From IMG/VR virus record IMGVR_UViG_3300025429_000082, positions 1-24,421 of that record: 24,421 bases of DNA; one strand, 5' to 3'. The stretch comes from a virus. Taxonomy: Duplodnaviria > Caudoviricetes. Of the stretch, positions 3,032 to 15,436 are shown in pieces. The position numbers and the translations under genes are program-made. Positions within the stretch are counted from its first letter, which is position 1; every line of letters starts with the position of its first letter. The notes below the pieces were generated by a model. It was not told the origin of the DNA and ran no database searches. It saw nothing but the letters and a program-made list of their open reading frames with translations.

Positions 3032-5281
3032 TTGGCACGCTTTGGTCGCAAGAACAAGACAGCGGAACTCGCGAAGGCCGTAGCGGCAGAACTCGCGAAG
3101 GGTCAGGTCGGCCCCTACTCGGACGCCGCCTACTCGCAGAGCGCCGCGGCTATTCCATACGCGAACATGACCGGCCAAATCCAGGTCGCGGGCGAAGTGG
3201 TCGCCATGCCCCGACCAGGTGGCGCGTTCGGTGCCATCCTCGGCCCGAGCGCACCGCTGGTTCCCGCAGCCCTTGACGTAGTTGACCCCGACACTGGTCG
3301 GGCGATGCCGCGCAAGTACGAGTACCAAGTTGCGCAGAACCTCAACATCACCCAGACGAGCGTTCCCTTCGCCATCCTGCGCCAACTCGCCGAACAATGC
3401 GACATTATCCACCGTTGCATCGAGATCCGCGTCAGCGAAATCGTCAAGCAGGACTGGTCGTTCGCGGTCGCCCCGCAGGCCATCGCCGAAATCATGGAGA
3501 CCGAGAACTGCTCGCACGCGAAGGCCGCCAAGATTGGCCGCGAGAAGTTCGGCGAGGAAATCGTCCGCCTCACGCAGTTCTGGGAGAACCCCTACGTCGC
3601 CAGCGACCGTTCCTTCGTCGAGTGGATGACCGAGGCGCTGTGGCAGGTGTTCGTCTTTGACCAACTCTGCGTCTACCCCCGCTACAGCCTCGGCAAGAAG
3701 TTGCTCGGCTTCGACATTATCGACTCGCCGACCATCAAAATCCTGCTGGACAACCGAGGCGACATTCCTCACCCGCCAGCGCCCGCGTTCCAACAAATCC
3801 TTCACGGCTTCCCACGCGGCGAGTTCACCGCCAGCCCCGACGCGGACGGCGAGTTCTTCTCGGGCGCTGGGCGTGCCGACCAGTTCCTCACGGATCAACT
3901 GTTCGTCAGCGTCCGCAACCGTCGCAGTTGGAGCGTCTACGGCTACAGCCCCGTGGAGCAGTCCATTCCAAGCGCGACGGAGTACCTCGAGCGCCAGCGT
4001 TGGCGCCGGAGCGAGTACCAGGACGGCTCCACGCCGAAGACCTGGATGCGCACGAACTCAATGGAACTCGACGCGCTGAAGTTGGCCGCCTACGAGCGCA
4101 TCCTCAACGACAAGTTGACCGGCTCGACCGCCGAGCGCCACCGCATCAAGGTTCTGCCGGACGGCTTTGAACCGATTGCCATGCCCCAGGTGGACTCGTA
4201 CTTCAAGCCGGAGTACGACGAGTTCATCATCAAGCGCATCGCTTCGTGCTTCGGTGTCTCACCGGCCGCCCTCGGCGTCATGCCCCGTTCCGGCCTCGGT
4301 GGCTCGGGCGAGCACAAGGGCCAGCAGGAGAGCGCCGAAATCGTCTCACAGCGCCCGATGGAGAACTACGTCGTCGAGTTCGTCAACGCCCTCTGCCGTC
4401 GCTTCCTCGACGCGGACAAGAACGTCACCTTCGTCCTGAACGACGAGCAGGCTGGCGAGAGCGAGCAGACCCGCCTCAACGCCTACAAGGTCGCCATCGA
4501 GTCCGGCCAGATGACCCTCAACGACGTTCGCGGTGAACTCGGCCTCGCCCTCTACGACGACCCGAGCGCCGACGAGCCGTTCATCGCCACCCCGCAAGGC
4601 CCCGTCTACTTCCGTGGCACGCTTGAAACGACCACGTCGGGGGAAACCACCGGACAAGTTGGAGAGCCCCATGAACAAGTTGCACAAGGCACACAAGGCA
4701 GCGCACAAGGCCCACAAAGCAGCGAAGAAGGGCCACAAGGCGAAGGTCAAGCACCAGTCAGTCAGGGCGAAAACGCCGAAGATCGTGTGAAGGCCGAACT
4801 GGCCGCGTTCAACAAGTTCGTCAAGGCTCGCACCAAGACCGGCGCGTGGCGCGACTTTCACTTCTCGGCCATCAACGAGGACGACGCCTACGCACTGAAT
4901 CAAGACGCCCAAGCAATCATCAAGGGCGAGACCTACACCCCTCCGGCTGGCGTGCAAGAAGCCGCCAAGCGTGCCCTCGAGTGGATCGCCGACGGCAAGG
5001 CAGGTTCCGGCTTCACCGACGTAGGGCGCAAGCGTGCCTCTGACCTCGCTCGTGGCGCTGGCGTCTCAATGGCGACCGTCCGACGCATGAAGGCCTACTT
5101 CGACCGCCACCAGAGCGACAAGGACGCCACGGGCTTCACCTCGGGCGAAGAGGGCTTCCCCTCACCTGGTCGTGTCGCGTGGGACGCGTGGGGCGGTGAC
5201 GCTGGCTACTCGTGGGTCAAGCGCCTCGTCGGAAGCGAGAAGGCCGCGGAGCCTGACCGCCCTTTTTACTCGGGGCTCTAG
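3032..5281 (+). CDS. Portal protein with a long C-terminal extension (acidic linker plus extra domains)
   Basis: Follows TerL. AGGAG SD (3021-3025) before TTG. Portal motifs VYGYSPVE, IASCFGVSPAALG and GQMTLNDVRGELGL. The extra C-terminal domain spans about 4925-5230. Confidence 0.92.
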   Translation: MARFGRKNKTAELAKAVAAELAKGQVGPYSDAAYSQSAAAIPYANMTGQIQVAGEVVAMPRPGGAFGAILGPSAPLVPAALDVVDPDTGRAMPRKYEYQVAQNLNITQTSVPFAILRQLAEQCDIIHRCIEIRVSEIVKQDWSFAVAPQAIAEIMETENCSHAKAAKIGREKFGEEIVRLTQFWENPYVASDRSFVEWMTEALWQVFVFDQLCVYPRYSLGKKLLGFDIIDSPTIKILLDNRGDIPHPPAPAFQQILHGFPRGEFTASPDADGEFFSGAGRADQFLTDQLFVSVRNRRSWSVYGYSPVEQSIPSATEYLERQRWRRSEYQDGSTPKTWMRTNSMELDALKLAAYERILNDKLTGSTAERHRIKVLPDGFEPIAMPQVDSYFKPEYDEFIIKRIASCFGVSPAALGVMPRSGLGGSGEHKGQQESAEIVSQRPMENYVVEFVNALCRRFLDADKNVTFVLNDEQAGESEQTRLNAYKVAIESGQMTLNDVRGELGLALYDDPSADEPFIATPQGPVYFRGTLETTTSGETTGQVGEPHEQVAQGTQGSAQGPQSSEEGPQGEGQAPVSQGENAEDRVKAELAAFNKFVKARTKTGAWRDFHFSAINEDDAYALNQDAQAIIKGETYTPPAGVQEAAKRALEWIADGKAGSGFTDVGRKRASDLARGAGVSMATVRRMKAYFDRHQSDKDATGFTSGEEGFPSPGRVAWDAWGGDAGYSWVKRLVGSEKAAEPDRPFYSGL
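4671..4790 (+). CDS. Overprinted (+1 frame) 39-aa Lys/His/Ala-rich basic peptide MNKLHKAHKAAHKAHKAAKKGHKAKVKHQSVRAKTPKIV
   Basis: Own SD context GGAGAGCCCC-ATG (4661-4673). Codons are mostly G/C-ending in this frame, while the portal frame turns to A-ending codons here. 12 K, 6 H, 1 R, no D/E. Confidence 0.6.
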   Translation: MNKLHKAHKAAHKAHKAAKKGHKAKVKHQSVRAKTPKIV

Positions 5282-5299
5282 CGAAGGCTGGGGCCGCCG
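5260..5299 (+). promoter_or_regulatory. Putative programmed -1 ribosomal frameshift signal (portal to MuF)
   Basis: X XXY YYZ heptamer C CCT TTT (5260-5266) in portal phase, then hairpin GGCTCTAGC-GAAG-GCTGGGGCC (5274-5295, extendable to 5271-5299). The -1 frame opens right after TGA at 5254-5256. Confidence 0.75.
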
Positions 5300-6093
5300 A
5301 CCTCCCGCACCACGGCAAGAAAGTGACGATTGAGGACTACTACCGTCCGGTCATCGCCGAAGCCCTGCGTCAGCTCGTCACCAACCCCGACGAGATTGCC
5401 AAGCACGCCGTCGAAGTCGCGAGCCACTACAACAAGGCCGCCGACCCCGACAAGAAGGCCATCGCACGCAACGCGGTAGACCACACGGCCAAGACCGACC
5501 CAGAGGCCCTCGTAAAGGCTCTGAAGCGCCTCTACGGCGACGCTGGCATGACCGGCGCTAAGACCGCGCTCGACGACATGGGTGGCGCTGCCAAACTCGG
5601 CTCGGGCATGAGTGGCCTCGTCGGTGGCGTGGACTGGGCGAACTGGAAGCCTGGCAACCCCGAAGCGGCCGAGAAGGTCGCGGGCAAGCGCCTCGGCGAA
5701 ATCTGGTCGAACGCGGGCTACACCGTGGACGGCATCACCAAGACCACCACGAATCGCATCGGCACCATTATCGCCGACGGACTGACCGCTGGCTCGACGT
5801 GGCAGGAAATCTCGGCGGGCATCAACGACCTGCTGAACAACCCAGGTCGCGCCGACATCATCGCCATCACCGAAACCAACCGCGCCTTCATCGGCGCCTC
5901 GGTGGACGAGTACCAGAACTCCGGCATGGACGGCTTCACTTGGCTGGCCTACGACGGAGCGTGCCCCGAGTGCGAAGAGCAAGCGGGCGACCACTCCTTC
6001 GGTGACGACTACCCACCGGCGCACCCCGCCTGCCGTTGCGCCGTCATCGCGATTATTCCCGACGAAACCCTACCCCTTCCCTCGGAGGACTAA
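5260..6093 (+). CDS. MuF/SPP1 gp7-like minor head morphogenesis protein (ORF-caller start 5323; frame open from 5257, probably reached by -1 frameshift)
   Basis: RADIIAITETNRA, W...D..CPEC and the hallmark PPAHPACRC motif. Lies between portal and protease. GTG5323 lacks a good SD. Confidence 0.88.
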   Translation, partial: PFLLGALAKAGAADLPHHGKKVTIEDYYRPVIAEALRQLVTNPDEIAKHAVEVASHYNKAADPDKKAIARNAVDHTAKTDPEALVKALKRLYGDAGMTGAKTALDDMGGAAKLGSGMSGLVGGVDWANWKPGNPEAAEKVAGKRLGEIWSNAGYTVDGITKTTTNRIGTIIADGLTAGSTWQEISAGINDLLNNPGRADIIAITETNRAFIGASVDEYQNSGMDGFTWLAYDGACPECEEQAGDHSFGDDYPPAHPACRCAVIAIIPDETLPLPSED

Positions 6094-7757
6094 TGACTAA
6101 CGAAATCAAGCACGTCTACTTCGGCAACCTGACCGTCAAGCGCGGTGAGGACGGCTACTTGCGCGTCAAGGGTCTCGCGACCGACGACACGCTCGACCTG
6201 GACGAGCAGATCTGCGACCCCGAGTGGCTGAAGACCGCCATGCCGAAGTGGATGGAAATCGGGAACATCCGCGAGATGCACGGCGCGAAGGCCGTTGGCA
6301 AGGCCGTCGAGATGGAGCAGTCCGGCAACGGGTTCATCGTCGAGGCCAAGATTGTCGACAAGGACGCCGCGCTGAAAGTCGAAGAGGACATCTACACCGG
6401 CTTCTCGGTTGGTATCAAGAACGCCCGAGTGGTGAAGGACGCAGCTGCCCCAGGTGGTCGCATCGTGTCCGGCCAAATCGTCGAGGTATCCCTCGTCGAC
6501 CGACCCGCTAACCCCAGCGCGGTCATCGAAATCGCTAAGTCAGTCGACGGCGAATTAGTGAAAGGTTCAGCCGTGTCTGACGAAATCAAGTTCGCGGAGG
6601 GCGCCACGCTCAACGCCGAAGCCGAAATGATTGAAACCCCCTTGCAGAACGCCGAAGCGGCCGCCCGCGACAAGCAGATGCAACCCTGCAACGCCTGCGG
6701 TGGCACCGGCTTCAAGGGCAACGTCGCCGAAGAGGACATGACGAGCGTCCCCTGTGAGAACTGCCACGGCACGGGTGTCCAGCCCGAGCACTCGAACGAG
6801 GACATCATTCAGTCCAGCCCGACTCAGCCCGCCAACGCGGACGACGCGAACCACGACGTGAAGGGCGCGGACGCCGAGGTCGAGAAGAAGGACTACTCCG
6901 ACAAGGAGCGCCAGGCTCTCGCCGACGCCGGTCAGGCTCTGCCCGACGGCTCGTTCCCCGTCAAGACCGTCGCCGACCTCAAGAACGCAATCCAGTCCTA
7001 CGGTCGCGCGAAGGACAAGGACGCCGCCAAGAAGCACATCATCGCTCGCGCGAAGGCTCTCGGCAAGGAAGACCTCATCCCCGACAACTGGAAGGGCGCG
7101 GACGCCGACCTGACGAAGGCCGACGACCTCATGCACGACCCCGCCGACCTCGTGGCCGTGCGTGCGTCACTCATCGCGCTCATCAAGGCCGAACTCGACG
7201 AGATGCTCGCGGGCACCGAGAACGAAGTCGCGGACGTGACGCAGTTGCTCTGCACCCTCTCGATGTTCCTTGACTGGTGGACGAGCGAGGCTTCGGAAAA
7301 CGAAACCGACGCCCCCTTCACCGGCTGGGACATGGACAACAAAGAACCGTCAGGAGACGACATGGCTTACATTGGACTCGGCGTGAGCGCCGACCTCATC
7401 AAGGCTGCCGCCGCGGACACCGCGAGCGACACCGACAAGACCGCACTCCGCGACGAGATCCGCAAGGCTCTCGGCGTGGACGAGGAAATCGCCACCTACA
7501 AGGCGGCTCTGACCAAGTACGAGGAGGACATCACCGTCCTCAAGGGTGCTTTGGATGAGATCCGTGAGATGGCGGCACCTGGTGGGCCGGCCCTGCGCCA
7601 GACCACCGTTCAGGCTACGAAGTCAGCAAAGGCCGAGGCACTCCGCATCGAGGCCGAAGGCTTGCGCTACAAGGCCGCACAAATCACCGAACCGAACCTG
7701 CGCAACGAGTACCTCGCGACTGCTAGCCGTCTCGAGCGTCAAGCCGACCAGGCCTAA
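6093..7757 (+). CDS. HK97-family prohead maturation protease fused to a DnaJ-like Zn finger, a DUF6582-like domain and a C-terminal scaffold (554 aa; start ATG6093)
   Basis: GGAGGA SD and TAATG overlap at 6091-6095. Protease motifs IREMH, TGFSVG and EVSLVDRPANP. CNACGGTG/CENCHGTG, then ALPDGSFPV...HIIARAKALG...LIPDNW, then a helical C-terminus. Confidence 0.9.
   Translation: MTNEIKHVYFGNLTVKRGEDGYLRVKGLATDDTLDLDEQICDPEWLKTAMPKWMEIGNIREMHGAKAVGKAVEMEQSGNGFIVEAKIVDKDAALKVEEDIYTGFSVGIKNARVVKDAAAPGGRIVSGQIVEVSLVDRPANPSAVIEIAKSVDGELVKGSAVSDEIKFAEGATLNAEAEMIETPLQNAEAAARDKQMQPCNACGGTGFKGNVAEEDMTSVPCENCHGTGVQPEHSNEDIIQSSPTQPANADDANHDVKGADAEVEKKDYSDKERQALADAGQALPDGSFPVKTVADLKNAIQSYGRAKDKDAAKKHIIARAKALGKEDLIPDNWKGADADLTKADDLMHDPADLVAVRASLIALIKAELDEMLAGTENEVADVTQLLCTLSMFLDWWTSEASENETDAPFTGWDMDNKEPSGDDMAYIGLGVSADLIKAAAADTASDTDKTALRDEIRKALGVDEEIATYKAALTKYEEDITVLKGALDEIREMAAPGGPALRQTTVQATKSAKAEALRIEAEGLRYKAAQITEPNLRNEYLATASRLERQADQA
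6860..7108 (+). repeat. Perfect 18-bp direct repeat GAAGGGCGCGGACGCCGA (6860-6877 and 7091-7108)
   Basis: Read directly. The copies are 231 nt apart (in frame) and bracket the DUF6582-like domain. Confidence 0.9.
7362..7757 (+). CDS. Probable nested in-frame scaffolding protein (131 aa) from an internal start
   Basis: AGGAGA-CGAC-ATG GCT TAC at 7352-7370 closely resembles the capsid start AGGAGA-AAACA-ATG GCT TAC. The product is helical and Ala/Glu/Lys-rich. Same arrangement as lambda C/Nu3 and Mu I/Z. Confidence 0.6.
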   Translation: MAYIGLGVSADLIKAAAADTASDTDKTALRDEIRKALGVDEEIATYKAALTKYEEDITVLKGALDEIREMAAPGGPALRQTTVQATKSAKAEALRIEAEGLRYKAAQITEPNLRNEYLATASRLERQADQA

Positions 7758-12590: not shown

Positions 12591-12995
12591 ATGCCAGCCA
12601 TCGAACTACCGAACGGCGCCTCGGCCATCATCCGCACCAAAGCGGAGGTGTCCGAGCGCACCACTCGCAACATCTCACGCGCCTACATGAAGGCCGCGGG
12701 TACTGCCGCCAAACTCGCCACCAGCGGGTTCGACGACACCAAGCCCGAGACGTGGGGCGTGTTCGCCGACCTGTCTGACGAAGACCGCGCCAACCTGGAC
12801 GGCTATCAGGCGGCTCTCATCGTTGGCATGGTGTCCTCGTGGTCGCTCGGTGACCTCCCGACTGACGACACGGCTCTCGATCTACCGAAGGCCGTGTTCG
12901 ACGCCCTAGCTGAAGCCTGCGCCGCGGAGTTTGCCAAGACCGAGGAGTTCGGCCCCGACGGGGTGAACGACCCAAAAGCGCCTACCGCCGACTGA
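12591..12995 (+). CDS. Tail assembly chaperone (gpG-like)
   Basis: Between tube and tape measure, AAGGGG SD, ends D-P-K-A at the slippery site C CCA AAA. Confidence 0.82.
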   Translation: MPAIELPNGASAIIRTKAEVSERTTRNISRAYMKAAGTAAKLATSGFDDTKPETWGVFADLSDEDRANLDGYQAALIVGMVSSWSLGDLPTDDTALDLPKAVFDALAEACAAEFAKTEEFGPDGVNDPKAPTAD

Positions 12996-13189
12996 ACGCA
13001 CTCCGCGCTCAACTCAAAGGCCACACGGCCGAGGTTGACCGTGAACTCATGGACTACTGGCGCGAGTACCTATTCCGCAAGACCTTCGGCGGTACGCACG
13101 AGGACTTCCTCGACCAGCCCACGATGACTACCGAGTGGTTGATTGCTATTCACAACACCGTGGAGGCCATCCGTGGCGAACAGCCCTGA
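12971..13189 (+). CDS. -1 frameshift extension of the tail chaperone (gpGT-like, fusion about 199 aa)
   Basis: Heptamer C CCA AAA (12971-12977). The -1 frame reads PKSAYRRLNALRAQLKGHTAEVDRELMDYWREYLFRKTFGGTHEDFLDQPTMTTEWLIAIHNTVEAIRGEQP* and is absent from the ORF track. Confidence 0.8.
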   Translation, partial: PKSAYRRLNALRAQLKGHTAEVDRELMDYWREYLFRKTFGGTHEDFLDQPTMTTEWLIAIHNTVEAIRGEQP

Positions 13190-13646
13190 AATCGCCATTG
13201 AGACCAACACCGCCGAGGTCATCGCCCGCTTCAAGGCCAAAGCCGAAGCCGTCGAGCGTGCTTCGCGGTCTATCGTCGTCAAGGGTTCGGCCGTCATCGA
13301 GGCCGAGGCGAAGCAAGGGTTCCGACCCCGACCTACTGGCACACAGCGCACGTCCAAGAACGGGCGTGTCTGGTTCGACACCCGAGGCACGGCGGCTCCC
13401 CAGCCCCCTATCCCGACCCAGCGCACCGGCAATCTGCGCAACTCCATCAAGCGCATCGAGGTTCGCCGTATCGGCCCTGGCGCGTGGTTGAGCACCACCG
13501 GCCCCACGATGCTGTACGGCCGTCGCGTCGAACTAGGTGGCGGGCCAGCTCGAGCCTTCCCCTACATGGAGCCCGCCGTTCAGCGAGCCACCCCCGAACT
13601 ACAACGGATCTACCGAGAGGAGTGGGCGAAAGCCCTTGAAACCTAA
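13173..13646 (+). CDS. HK97 gp10-like tail completion protein (start GTG13173)
   Basis: GGAGG SD at 13162-13166. Motifs RTGNLRNSI, YGRRVELG and FPYMEPA. Confidence 0.8.
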   Translation: MANSPEIAIETNTAEVIARFKAKAEAVERASRSIVVKGSAVIEAEAKQGFRPRPTGTQRTSKNGRVWFDTRGTAAPQPPIPTQRTGNLRNSIKRIEVRRIGPGAWLSTTGPTMLYGRRVELGGGPARAFPYMEPAVQRATPELQRIYREEWAKALET

Positions 13647-15436
13647 TGGCTGAAAGCAACGTTGTAGTAAGTCTCATCGCGGACATCCGCGAGTTCACCG
13701 CGAAGATGGACGAGGCCGAGGGCAAACTCAAGTCGTTCGGCAAGACCGCCGAGGGCGCGTCGGGCAAGTTCAACTCGGCCGTCTCAAAGGCGTCTAGCGC
13801 CGTCCTGCTCGGCTTCGGTGGCGCCGCGGTCTACGCCGTCAAGTCGGCCTACGACTTCCAAGACGGACTCGAAAAACTCAAGAACGCCGCCGGTCTCACC
13901 GAAGAGCAGATGCAAGCCGCGGGCAAGGCCATCCTCAACGTTTCTAACCAGACGGGTGTCTCGGCCAAGAACATCACCTCGGCCTACACCGTCGCAGCCC
14001 AAGCTGGACTTCGCAACGCGGCCGCCACGGACGCAGTTAGCGCGGCCGCGAAGGCCTCGGTCATCACCGGCCAGAACGTCGCGGACATCACCAAGACCAT
14101 CGTCGGTATCCAGACGCTACAGATCGCGAAGGGCGAGAGCGTCGCGCAAATCACCGGCCAGTTGGTCAAGGCCAACCAGATGCACGTCGGAAGCCTCGAC
14201 CAGTTGAGCCGAGTCCTCACGGGCAAGGCTGGCGCGGCTCTCGCAAACTTCGGCGTCAACCTCTCGACGGCCGCGGCCATCTCGGACGTGACCTCTAAGG
14301 CTGGCCTGACCTCGACTCGCTCGTTCACCAGCCTCACCGCCGCGGTTCTCAAAATGGAGAACCCGACGAAGGCGATGGACGCCGCGATGAAGAAGTACGG
14401 CGTCAACCAAGAGCAAATCGCCCGTGACGCGAAGAAGCCAGGTGGCTTCATCAACGTACTGCAAGACGTGAACAAAGCGGCCGAGAAGGCTGGCGCGGGC
14501 AAGGGCGCGTTGATCCAAGCCCTGTTCGGTTCGCAAGGCGCTGGCACGGTCAACGTCTTGCTGAACAACCTCGGCCAGCTCAAGACCATTCAGGGTCAGA
14601 TTGGCGCGGCCGGTTCGACGAGCCTCAATCAGGGCTTCAAGGAAGTCATCACGACACAACTCGCCCCGCAGTTGAACCTCCTGAAGACCAACCTGCAAAA
14701 CACCTTCATCGAGGCGGGCAAGGTTCTACTCCCCGCCGTGACCACGGTCGTCGGTTGGGCTAGCTCGTTCTTCAAGGCGCTCAAGGACAGCCCAGGACTG
14801 CGCGACGTGTTCGGCGCTACCGCGGCCGGTATCTTCGCTGCCGCCATCGCGGTCAAGATTGCGGGCTTCGTGTCCAAAATCAAGGGCGTGGTCGACACCG
14901 TGCTCAAGACCGGCGAAGCGGCCAAGACAACCGCCTGGCAGGGCGAAGTGGTTGCGCTGTTGGAGCAAATCGCCGTGAACACCGGCGGGCTCGGGAAGTT
15001 GGGAACAATCGGCGAAGCGGGCATTCCATCAGCAGAACTCGCAGGCGGCGCTACCGTCGGTGGAACCGTCGCGGTTGCTGGCGCAGTCCTCGCCGTTGGC
15101 GCAGCCGCCGCGCTGTCGCTGGCTGAAGACGCGGCGCAGGCTCACAAGGACTTCAACAACCTGCACGCCAGCGTCGGCTACGTCAAGCAAAACTTTGGCA
15201 AGAAGTCCGACGTGGTGCTCAACGAAATGCAACGCCTACAGTCGCTCGGCTACACCTTCTTCAAGGTGAAGGGCGGTGGCCTTGAAGCCATCAAGGGAAG
15301 CACGGCCAAAGACCTTATGAGCGCCAAGAGCGCCTACACCTTCGCCCCTGGCTCGTCTCAAGAAGTGTTCAGGAACTTCATGACCGGCCAAAAGACGACG
15401 AAGCAACTCGGCACCGTCAAAATCAAGGTGCACTAA
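13646..15436 (+). CDS. Tape measure protein (596 aa, short)
   Basis: N-terminal VVSLIADIREF, long Ala/Gly/Lys-rich helical sequence, TP901-like core (...IQALFGSQG..., LKTNLQNTFIEAGKVLLP). Confidence 0.9.
   Translation: MAESNVVVSLIADIREFTAKMDEAEGKLKSFGKTAEGASGKFNSAVSKASSAVLLGFGGAAVYAVKSAYDFQDGLEKLKNAAGLTEEQMQAAGKAILNVSNQTGVSAKNITSAYTVAAQAGLRNAAATDAVSAAAKASVITGQNVADITKTIVGIQTLQIAKGESVAQITGQLVKANQMHVGSLDQLSRVLTGKAGAALANFGVNLSTAAAISDVTSKAGLTSTRSFTSLTAAVLKMENPTKAMDAAMKKYGVNQEQIARDAKKPGGFINVLQDVNKAAEKAGAGKGALIQALFGSQGAGTVNVLLNNLGQLKTIQGQIGAAGSTSLNQGFKEVITTQLAPQLNLLKTNLQNTFIEAGKVLLPAVTTVVGWASSFFKALKDSPGLRDVFGATAAGIFAAAIAVKIAGFVSKIKGVVDTVLKTGEAAKTTAWQGEVVALLEQIAVNTGGLGKLGTIGEAGIPSAELAGGATVGGTVAVAGAVLAVGAAAALSLAEDAAQAHKDFNNLHASVGYVKQNFGKKSDVVLNEMQRLQSLGYTFFKVKGGGLEAIKGSTAKDLMSAKSAYTFAPGSSQEVFRNFMTGQKTTKQLGTVKIKVH

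What the first reader, a model, noticed from the sequence alone, without database searches (positions are those of the whole stretch)
5254..6093. Programmed -1 frameshift predicted to fuse the portal to the MuF minor head protein
Seen: the portal ends ...GAC CGC CCT TTT TAC TCG GGG CTC TAG, with a perfect X XXY YYZ heptamer (C CCT TTT, 5260-5266). A 9-bp GAAG-looped hairpin starts 7 nt downstream (5274-5295, extendable to 5271-5299) and contains the portal stop. The -1 frame is closed by TGA at 5254-5256 and then stays open (PFLLGALAKAGAADLPHHGKKVTIED...) into MuF. The called MuF start GTG5323 lacks the AGGAG/GGAG SD found before most other structural genes here. Known: heptamer plus 3' structure is the standard -1 frameshift signal, and phage frameshifting is well known for tail chaperones and some capsid/tail proteins. 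I do not know a characterised portal-MuF case. Inference: a minority of portal subunits are about 1020-aa portal-MuF fusions, which would set MuF copy number and tether it at the portal vertex.
Basis: partly seen in the sequence, partly recalled or inferred. Interest (0 to 1): 0.88.

Follow-up and report, generated by a model that had tools for sequence, protein, structure and literature searches.

The report
Two-way frameshift switch at portal-MuF junction
This phage's portal gene ends in a slippery sequence and a predicted RNA hairpin that likely make some ribosomes slip back one base and add the MuF head protein, while relatives with the two genes fused in frame keep a slippery site at the same spot, where the same slip would instead cut MuF off.

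Summary
Observation confirmed: in-phase C CCT TTT (5260-5266), a predicted hairpin 7 nt downstream (z -4.7), an open -1 frame into MuF, no SD at GTG5323, and no indel in 4 of 4 runs. A conserved K..DLP segment of MuF lies upstream of the first start codon.

Among distinct split junctions, 16 of 20 carry an in-phase slippery heptamer near the portal stop, in five variants. Unexpectedly, 55 of 59 distinct in-frame portal-MuF fusions keep C CCA AAA at the junction, against 0 of 75 Pro-Lys sites elsewhere, mostly with a -1 stop close behind. There the slip would truncate. These include the cultured Arthrobacter phages Sonali and Mufasa8. The layout changes at least 5 times on the portal tree.

Best reading: one -1 switch gives portal with and without MuF in either layout. 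Shifting and its ratio are unmeasured, and most fused sites lack a 3' hairpin. Ten literature searches found no portal frameshift. This scan noted the split form on other DNA before (six notes); I found no note of the truncating form.

The parts
3032..5281 (+). Portal gene, 749 aa; 0-frame (short) product
   Evidence: PF04860 62 bits; phrog_2662 and phrog_12
4934..5236 (+). Extra domain of about 100 aa in the portal tail (aa 635-735), absent from many relatives
   Evidence: phrog_2859, unknown function, E 6e-41; many homologues cover only about 84% of the query
5248..5251 (+). GGAG 8 nt before the heptamer; possible 5' SD-like stimulator, uncertain
   Evidence: Anti-SD duplex -6.4 kcal/mol; 12 of 23 split junctions reach -5, against 27% of background
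5254..5256 (+). TGA closing the -1 frame just before the heptamer
5260..5266 (+). Slippery heptamer C CCU UUU in portal phase
   Evidence: one of only 2 in 7037 codons
5270..5300 (+). Predicted 3' hairpin (core 5274-5295) holding the portal stop TAG 5279-5281
   Evidence: z -4.72 for the core; z -3.0
5284..5307 (+). Conserved K....DLP segment of the MuF N-terminus in the -1 frame, upstream of any start codon
   Evidence: K in 36 of 46 rows, L 30 of 46, P 43 of 46; residues 11-20 have mean pLDDT 95
5260..6093 (+). -1 frame encoding the MuF (SPP1 gp7-like) domain, 277 codons; predicted C-terminal extension of the portal
   Evidence: PF04233; phrog_2662 portal profile positions 457-706 match this ORF; model pLDDT 88
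5323..5325 (+). Called MuF start GTG, without SD and not conserved
   Evidence: -1.7 kcal/mol; V in 5 of 46 rows of that column
6093..7757 (+). Head maturation protease gene, SD-led (context)
   Evidence: phrog_80, phrog_9427; SD -9.5
12971..12977 (+). C CCA AAA at the end of the likely tail-chaperone gene (12591-12995), -1 frame open 72 codons; internal control
   Evidence: position between tail tube and tape measure genes

Best explanation
The portal gene ends in an in-phase slippery heptamer and a predicted hairpin, and some ribosomes likely slip back one base there, so the phage would make both a 749-aa portal and a 1020-aa portal-MuF fusion from one start. Shown: the signal, the open -1 frame, the missing SD, and a conserved MuF segment reachable only by a shift. 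Inferred: tandem slippage of tRNA-Pro and tRNA-Phe from CCU UUU to CCC UUU, with the hairpin pausing the ribosome; both forms co-assemble in the portal ring, which brings a fixed fraction of MuF into the prohead. Across the family the switch occurs in two mirror layouts. In split genes the shift adds MuF. In genes fused in frame, C CCA AAA sits at the same junction with a -1 stop a few codons on, so the shift would remove MuF (about 0.7 likely). What selection keeps is probably a mixed ring of portal with and without the passenger domain. The ratio is unknown in both layouts.
For: (1) Split relatives: 30 of 30 loci (redundant) are in -1 phase. 16 of 20 distinct junctions have an in-phase heptamer within 70 nt of the portal stop: CCCTTTT 5, CCCAAAA 5, CCCTTTA 3, AAAAAAG 2, TTTAAAA 1 (window and L001 are near-copies). 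The XXXYYYZ shape is kept while letters and amino acids change. L017 and L023 (no portal core on the contig) and L015, L167, L168, L217, L239 (MuF C-domain not detected in the held DNA) show the same. (2) Of 17 split junctions examined, the K..[DE]LP-like MuF segment lies before the first usable start in most; L168 and L174 have no start within 200 nt. (3) Natural in-frame fusions exist: 74 of the 120 listed homologues are long forms, 69 of them with D[TNI]PK at the junction. (4) Fused: 55 of 59 distinct junctions carry C CCA AAA, against 0 of 75 Pro-Lys sites elsewhere in 64 ORFs and 48 in-phase heptamers per 52,365 codons. The -1 product stops within 11 codons in 55 of 58 and ends in Tyr in 50 of 58; a stop within 7 codons occurs at 31% of background positions. 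The -1 stop survives 0-frame changes TK to TR, TD and SK. (5) Cultured Sonali and Mufasa8 (20-22% identical to the window portal) have C CCA AAA G, a 6-bp hairpin and a -1 stop. In Sonali it is 1 of 27 Pro-Lys sites, with CCA 20 of 561 Pro and AAA 25 of 387 Lys codons. (6) The window uses C CCA AAA G at its likely tail-chaperone shift, and Sonali has C CCT TTT at the end of gene 13 in the chaperone position. (7) Split versus fused changes 6 times on a 48-row tree, 5 after relabelling. (8) The site is kept when another domain follows the portal (L134, L237, L007, L110).
Against: No translation data; shifting is not observed. The -1 phase alone is no evidence, since ATGA and TAATG coupling give it too (L083/L084, L134, L237). 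The L006/L086/L087 family has an ATG right behind the heptamer, which could start MuF on its own. A 3' structure with z <= -2 is found in only 8 of 23 split and 3 of 59 fused junctions, and SD-like pairing in fused sites (13 of 59) is no higher than background (27%), so fused sites may shift weakly. The signal is not universal: L016/L170, Polewnik and MMB025 are fused without a junction heptamer, THSA-485A is equivocal (9 heptamers in an AT-rich ORF), and 5 of 74 long proteins lack D[TNI]PK. One of 46 unfused proteins (P0028) has no compatible dipeptide. Junction sequences are related, so counts are not independent; about 30 of the unfused proteins are near-copies. Tree changes may reflect recombination rather than new switches. 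The two layouts predict opposite majority products unless efficiencies differ greatly.
Confidence: 0.87

Rival explanations
1. MuF is a separate protein started at GTG5323 (or by re-initiation after the portal stop), and the heptamer is incidental.
For: A GTG exists and gives a 256-aa ORF holding the whole PF04233 match. Coupled portal and MuF genes in -1 phase exist in the distant L083/L084, and one split family has ATG behind the heptamer. Separate muf genes after the portal are the rule in print (PMC5576092, passages).
Against: No SD; the GTG lies 42 nt past the stop and is not conserved; a conserved, confidently modelled segment lies upstream of it; 16 of 20 split junctions carry heptamers.
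Confidence: 0.06
2. The two products arise by transcriptional slippage (one extra U or A added by RNA polymerase), not by ribosome slippage.
For: All sites are short runs, and L174 and L203 have A9 runs. Most fused sites lack a 3' stimulator.
Against: The window run is only T5 (homopolymers of about 8-9 are usually needed; recalled). Sites are in X XXY YYZ codon phase, with a hairpin at ribosomal spacing in the window.
Confidence: 0.05
3. The window frameshift is real, but in fused relatives the conserved junction DNA is a relic or another signal (a protein-binding site, or a hairpin that encloses the heptamer) and yields no meaningful short portal.
For: Fused sites mostly lack a 3' hairpin or SD. 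GATA before the heptamer is invariant in 42 of 42 rows. A stem pairing the flanks around the heptamer has 79.9% of cells paired and exceeds 500 of 500 shuffles. A few fused genes have lost the site.
Against: RNAalifold finds no consensus structure, and related sequences can beat those shuffles. The heptamer is kept in Streptomyces prophages and Arthrobacter phages whose flanks differ entirely. The -1 stop is kept through amino-acid changes.
Confidence: 0.25
4. The window holds a fused gene broken by a sequencing or assembly deletion in the T run.
For: Most relatives are fused in frame, and indel-like breaks occur in some contigs (L223, L236).
Against: No indel in contigs of 4 of 4 runs; same run in L001; diverged split relatives break at the same place with different heptamers.
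Confidence: 0.01

Closest known systems
Tail assembly chaperone G/GT -1 frameshift (lambda and most long-tailed phages)
   Same: X XXY YYZ site near the end of a morphogenesis gene; short and long products in a fixed ratio (30:1 in lambda; PMC5009743, passages). The window likely has its own such site at 12971.
   Different: Acts on the portal, a head component; the extension is MuF; relatives use the mirror layout, in which the shift would truncate.
Capsid and tail C-terminal extensions by frameshift (T7/T3 gene 10, Lactobacillus phage A2, Listeria phages A118/A500/PSA, SPP1 gp17.1*)
   Same: A fraction of a virion protein gets an extra domain by a shift at the gene end; in-frame versions of such extensions also occur (PMC5009743 and PMC6316719, passages).
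   Different: Those add mostly Ig- or FN3-like domains to capsid or tail tube. The held part of the review has no mention of portal or MuF. In-frame versions keeping a truncating site are not mentioned in the passages seen.
Single-ORF portal-MuF fusions (Microbacterium subclusters EA3/EA5/EA8 and cluster EB; Arthrobacter Sonali gp3)
   Same: Same domain order; the predicted long product equals such a fusion (PMC7302621, passages; annotation).
   Different: They are described or annotated as one constitutive protein. Sonali and Mufasa8 gp3 carry an unannotated in-phase C CCA AAA, hairpin and -1 stop at the junction. The Microbacterium genes were not examined.
E. coli dnaX tau/gamma (and copA/CopA(Z)) truncating -1 frameshift
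   Same: A -1 shift meets a near stop and gives a short subunit of an oligomer (dnaX site AAAAAAG seen in a search abstract; the rest recalled). This is the logic inferred for the fused relatives.
   Different: dnaX has 5' SD and 3' stem-loop stimulators (recalled), which most fused portal sites lack. The window itself is of the extending type.
SPP1 gp6-gp7 pair
   Same: The MuF protein gp7 binds the portal, enters the prohead in 1-2 copies and aids infection; only about 25% of virions lacking it are infectious (PMC5576092, PMC6316719, passages).
   Different: gp7 is a separate protein recruited non-covalently; here the link would be covalent and set by translation.

Membership tests
Programmed -1 ribosomal frameshift (X XXY YYZ type) | Slippery heptamer in the phase of the upstream ORF | tested here: met
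   C CCT TTT 5260-5266
Programmed -1 ribosomal frameshift (X XXY YYZ type) | 3' structure a few nt downstream | tested here: met
   Predicted hairpin 7 nt downstream, z -4.72; only 8 of 23 split junctions reach z <= -2
Programmed -1 ribosomal frameshift (X XXY YYZ type) | Coding -1 frame without a start of its own | tested here: met
   Conserved K..DLP upstream of the first GTG; no SD
Programmed -1 ribosomal frameshift (X XXY YYZ type) | Signal conserved beyond protein constraint | tested here: met
   Five heptamer variants in 16 of 20 split junctions; C_CCA_AAA in 55 of 59 fused junctions against 0 of 75 elsewhere
Programmed -1 ribosomal frameshift (X XXY YYZ type) | 5' SD-like stimulator (bacterial cases) | tested here: inconclusive
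   GGAG 8 nt upstream, -6.4 kcal/mol; 12 of 23 split against 27% background
Programmed -1 ribosomal frameshift (X XXY YYZ type) | Shifted product demonstrated | not testable with these tools
   No proteomic, reporter or profiling data
MuF / SPP1 gp7 family | PF04233 domain above the gathering score, directly after the portal | tested here: met
   32 bits against 29.6
MuF / SPP1 gp7 family | Binds portal and DNA, present in the virion | not tested
   No complex was modelled; no solved homologue found by Foldseek
Single-ORF portal-MuF fusion | Portal and MuF in one uninterrupted frame | tested here: not met
   The window has TAG at 5279-5281; met in relatives
dnaX-type truncating -1 frameshift (fused relatives only) | In-phase heptamer with a near -1 stop | tested here: met
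   Stop within 11 codons in 55 of 58
dnaX-type truncating -1 frameshift (fused relatives only) | 3' stem-loop and 5' SD stimulators | tested here: not met
   3 of 59 with z <= -2; 13 of 59 SD-like against 27% background; Sonali and Mufasa8 do have a 6-bp hairpin
Transcriptional slippage site | Long homopolymer run (about 8-9 or more; recalled) | tested here: not met
   T5 in the window; A9 in L174 and L203

The most novel reading that the evidence does not exclude
A whole portal family, from freshwater phages to Streptomyces prophages and cultured Arthrobacter phages, builds mixed portal rings with one -1 frameshift switch whose polarity has flipped repeatedly. In split genes it adds MuF; in genes annotated as constitutive portal-MuF fusions it removes MuF or whatever other passenger follows. 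Many annotated fusions would then hide a second, short portal, and the switch would meter cargo domains into the head.
Probability: 0.62. Interest if true: 0.86.

Novelty: new variant of a known kind. Interest (0 to 1): 0.76.

Why it matters
If true, the portal joins the tail chaperone, capsid and tail tube as a recoded phage structural gene, and portal rings in this family are hetero-oligomers. It addresses a standing puzzle of portal-MuF fusions: how a 12-mer (recalled) can carry a domain that SPP1 packs in 1-2 copies. The same signal working as extender or truncator in sister phages is a rare natural test of frameshift evolution. Sonali and Mufasa8 make it directly testable in a harmless laboratory host. 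Gene callers mis-start MuF in the split layout and miss the short portal in the fused one.

Tried and rejected
1. Assembly indel: rejected.
2. Expression: no RNA holder listed; this says nothing either way.
3. -1 phase as proof: rejected, because coupled starts give the same phase.
4. Protease cleavage after the conserved linker Lys (K in 36 of 46), which would release MuF: K[AGS] is not enriched in portal (0.30 against 0.27 expected) or MuF (0.25 against 0.29), only somewhat in the protease (0.43 against 0.26). One literature search gave nothing relevant. Left as speculation.
5. Hairpin enclosing the fused heptamer: weak support, no RNAalifold structure. Not adopted.
6. DNA pattern scan: 120 loci, 68 distinct. 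All 50 in the portal family have TACTAA in the -1 frame, against 9 of 18 outside it. This is not independent of 0-frame PK..TK conservation, so it is not counted as separate evidence.
7. Foldseek of the MuF model against PDB: no match at E <= 0.001.
8. Genus-wide search around a Streptomyces genome: 2 of 401 genomes matched, one being the centre. The fetched loci were too short for the junction.
9. Plasmid search: 3 weak partial hits, not followed. No tRNA genes in the window.
10. Junction DNA was not found for P0087, and was not sought for P0059, P0061, P0116 or P0028, so alternative heptamers in those proteins stay untested.
11. Rows dropped: L163 (copy of the window). From the tree: L223 and L236 (apparent indels), L050, loci without a junction, and 7 short cores including Mufasa8. 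From the relabelled count: L083, L252, L253. Many loci are the same contigs fetched repeatedly, so distinct-junction counts are used.
Full report
1. Setting. The window is a 24.4-kb, 63% GC siphophage structural operon: terminase, portal (3032-5281), MuF, head protease, capsid, tail tube, chaperone and tape measure. It is a virus record on its own. The 7 runs holding at least half of the sampled words are labelled freshwater metagenome. The host was not determined.

2. Observation. All stated features are present: the in-phase C CCT TTT at 5260-5266, the -1 frame closed at 5254-5256 and open for 277 codons, and a 9-bp hairpin 7 nt downstream that holds the portal stop (z -4.72). GTG5323 is the first start in the -1 frame and has no SD (-1.7 kcal/mol). 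Only two in-phase XXX(AAA|TTT)N heptamers occur in 7037 codons of 22 ORFs: this one and C CCA AAA at the likely tail-chaperone shift. Contigs of 4 of 4 runs bridge the site without indel.

3. The -1 segment before the GTG is coding. In an alignment of 46 MuF parts taken from the heptamer onward, K9, L15 and P16 are kept in 36, 30 and 43 rows, while the GTG column is variable. The model is confident from about residue 11 on (block mean pLDDT 95; whole model 88) and its first long helix starts at residue 18, before the GTG at residue 22. A portal profile (phrog_2662) covers both ORFs end to end.

4. Split relatives. Of 270 redundant loci with a portal core, 194 are fused, 30 split and 46 show no MuF domain, mostly at contig ends. 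All 30 split loci are in -1 phase. Phase alone proves little, because ATGA and TAATG coupling give it too. The heptamer is the discriminating feature: 16 of 20 distinct split junctions have one within 70 nt of the stop, in five variants. The four without are L083 (distant, ATGA-coupled), L134 and L237 (portal fused to another domain, MuF with its own ATG) and L223 (apparent indel in a fused gene); the last three carry C CCA AAA at the internal junction. Hairpins are common among the closer split relatives but not general (8 of 23 at z <= -2). One family has an ATG right after the heptamer. At protein level, 45 of 46 unfused homologues among the 120 listed (of 628 found) have P[KFL] in their last 22 residues; about 30 of these are near-copies.

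5. Fused relatives: the mirror layout. 55 of 59 distinct fused junctions carry C CCA AAA in phase at the boundary. The same codon string is in 0 of 75 Pro-Lys sites elsewhere in 64 ORFs. The following base is G in 58 of 58, the -1 frame stops within 11 codons in 55 of 58, and the short product ends in Tyr in 50 of 58 (the 58 include 3 with no MuF domain in the held DNA). The stop is kept when the 0-frame changes from TK to TR, TD or SK. The site is present in six loci from bacterial genome assemblies, four of them Streptomyces at 70-71% GC. It is also present in the cultured Arthrobacter phages Sonali and Mufasa8, whose portal-NUDIX-MuF genes add a 6-bp hairpin and a -1 stop after 11 codons; the Sonali annotation shows no shift there. 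Against: most fused sites have no 3' structure (3 of 59) and no excess SD pairing, and L016/L170, Polewnik and MMB025 lack the site while THSA-485A is equivocal.

6. Evolution. On a 48-row tree of the portal core the split/fused label needs 6 changes, all forced by well-supported branches, and 5 after relabelling L134 and L237 as fused and leaving out three distant rows. The window's closest rows are one split and then one fused locus. An indel just after the heptamer would swap which frame is default (inference). Recombination could explain some changes, and the root is not fixed.

7. Mechanism. Inferred: ribosomes pause at the hairpin with CCU in the P site and UUU in the A site, and both tRNAs re-pair one base back on CCC UUU. 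Unshifted ribosomes stop 4 codons later (749 aa, 82 kDa); shifted ones make 1020 aa, 111 kDa. Both forms would enter the portal ring and carry MuF into the prohead, as SPP1 does non-covalently with 1-2 copies of gp7. The fraction shifted is unknown. The two layouts predict opposite majorities unless efficiencies differ, so 'a mixed ring' is better supported than 'a low copy number'. Whether MuF stays tethered or is cut off at the linker Lys is open (one search gave no support for a Lys motif).

8. Literature. Ten full-text searches listed no paper on a portal frameshift; the library lacks most subscription papers. I read passages only, found by term search, of PMC7911831, PMC7302621, PMC5576092, PMC10885494, PMC5009743 (first 300,000 of 449,034 characters held, no 'portal' in them), PMC6316719, PMC4493119, PMC2628397 and PMC10299305. 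The closest hint is PRFect, which lists MuF-like genes among its 'false positive' frameshift calls in SEA-PHAGES genomes; its supplement was not read and may bear on novelty. The A2, T7 and lambda papers were seen only as cited in the review. Details of dnaX and copA are recalled.

9. Earlier notes of this scan. Six AI notes report an extending portal-MuF shift on other genomes; I did not check their DNA, and they are not counted as support. Look-ups for the truncating layout, for this protein and for this genome showed nothing; one note names Sonali gp3 as a fusion only.

10. Verdict. A real and strongly conserved -1 recoding signal at the portal-MuF junction (0.87), a new variant of a known mechanism. 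Its most interesting feature is the two-way layout (about 0.6-0.7), which is testable in cultured phages. Interest 0.76.

Noticed in passing
window 12971-13189: C CCA AAA G 24 nt before the stop of the gene after the tail tube, with the -1 frame open 72 codons: a likely G/GT chaperone frameshift that the ORF list does not show.
   Followed up: partly
window 12971-12986 and L452:4354-4369: The window's chaperone site and Sonali's portal-MuF site share 16 identical bases from the heptamer on, while Sonali gene 13 ends with the window's portal heptamer C CCT TTT, unannotated.
   Followed up: no
L134, L237, L007, L110 after the portal junction: Other domains are inserted right behind the heptamer and TK, several starting with a short D(E)xGRF-like motif. 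L237 and L110 look ADP-ribosyltransferase-like by eye (untested). The site behaves as an insertion point for cargo.
   Followed up: partly
window 4934-5236: A 100-aa domain of unknown function (phrog_2859) in the portal tail; it also matches capsid, protease and other genes of unrelated phages.
   Followed up: no
fused junctions, e.g. L131:4994-5049: Invariant GATA before the heptamer and a frequent ATA Ile codon; the flanks can pair around the heptamer with some compensatory changes, but there is no consensus fold.
   Followed up: partly
portal C-termini, window 5260-5281 and relatives: The short product usually ends in an aromatic-rich tail in both layouts (FYSGL, WERL; RFSY, RFDY), although it is read from different frames.
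   Followed up: no
window 6093-7757: The head protease is long (554 aa) and carries a CxxC..CxxC zinc-finger-like insert (weak DnaJ_CXXCXGXG hit) and further segments.
   Followed up: no
window 13646-15436: The tape measure gene is short (596 aa) and has no SD; it overlaps the upstream stop.
   Followed up: no
P0107: A fused portal-MuF homologue has a C-terminal PF15644 domain, fitting the MuF polymorphic-toxin pattern.
   Followed up: no
L241: A split locus with C CCA AAA lies on a contig binned in an archaeal MAG; probably a phage contig, not checked.
   Followed up: no
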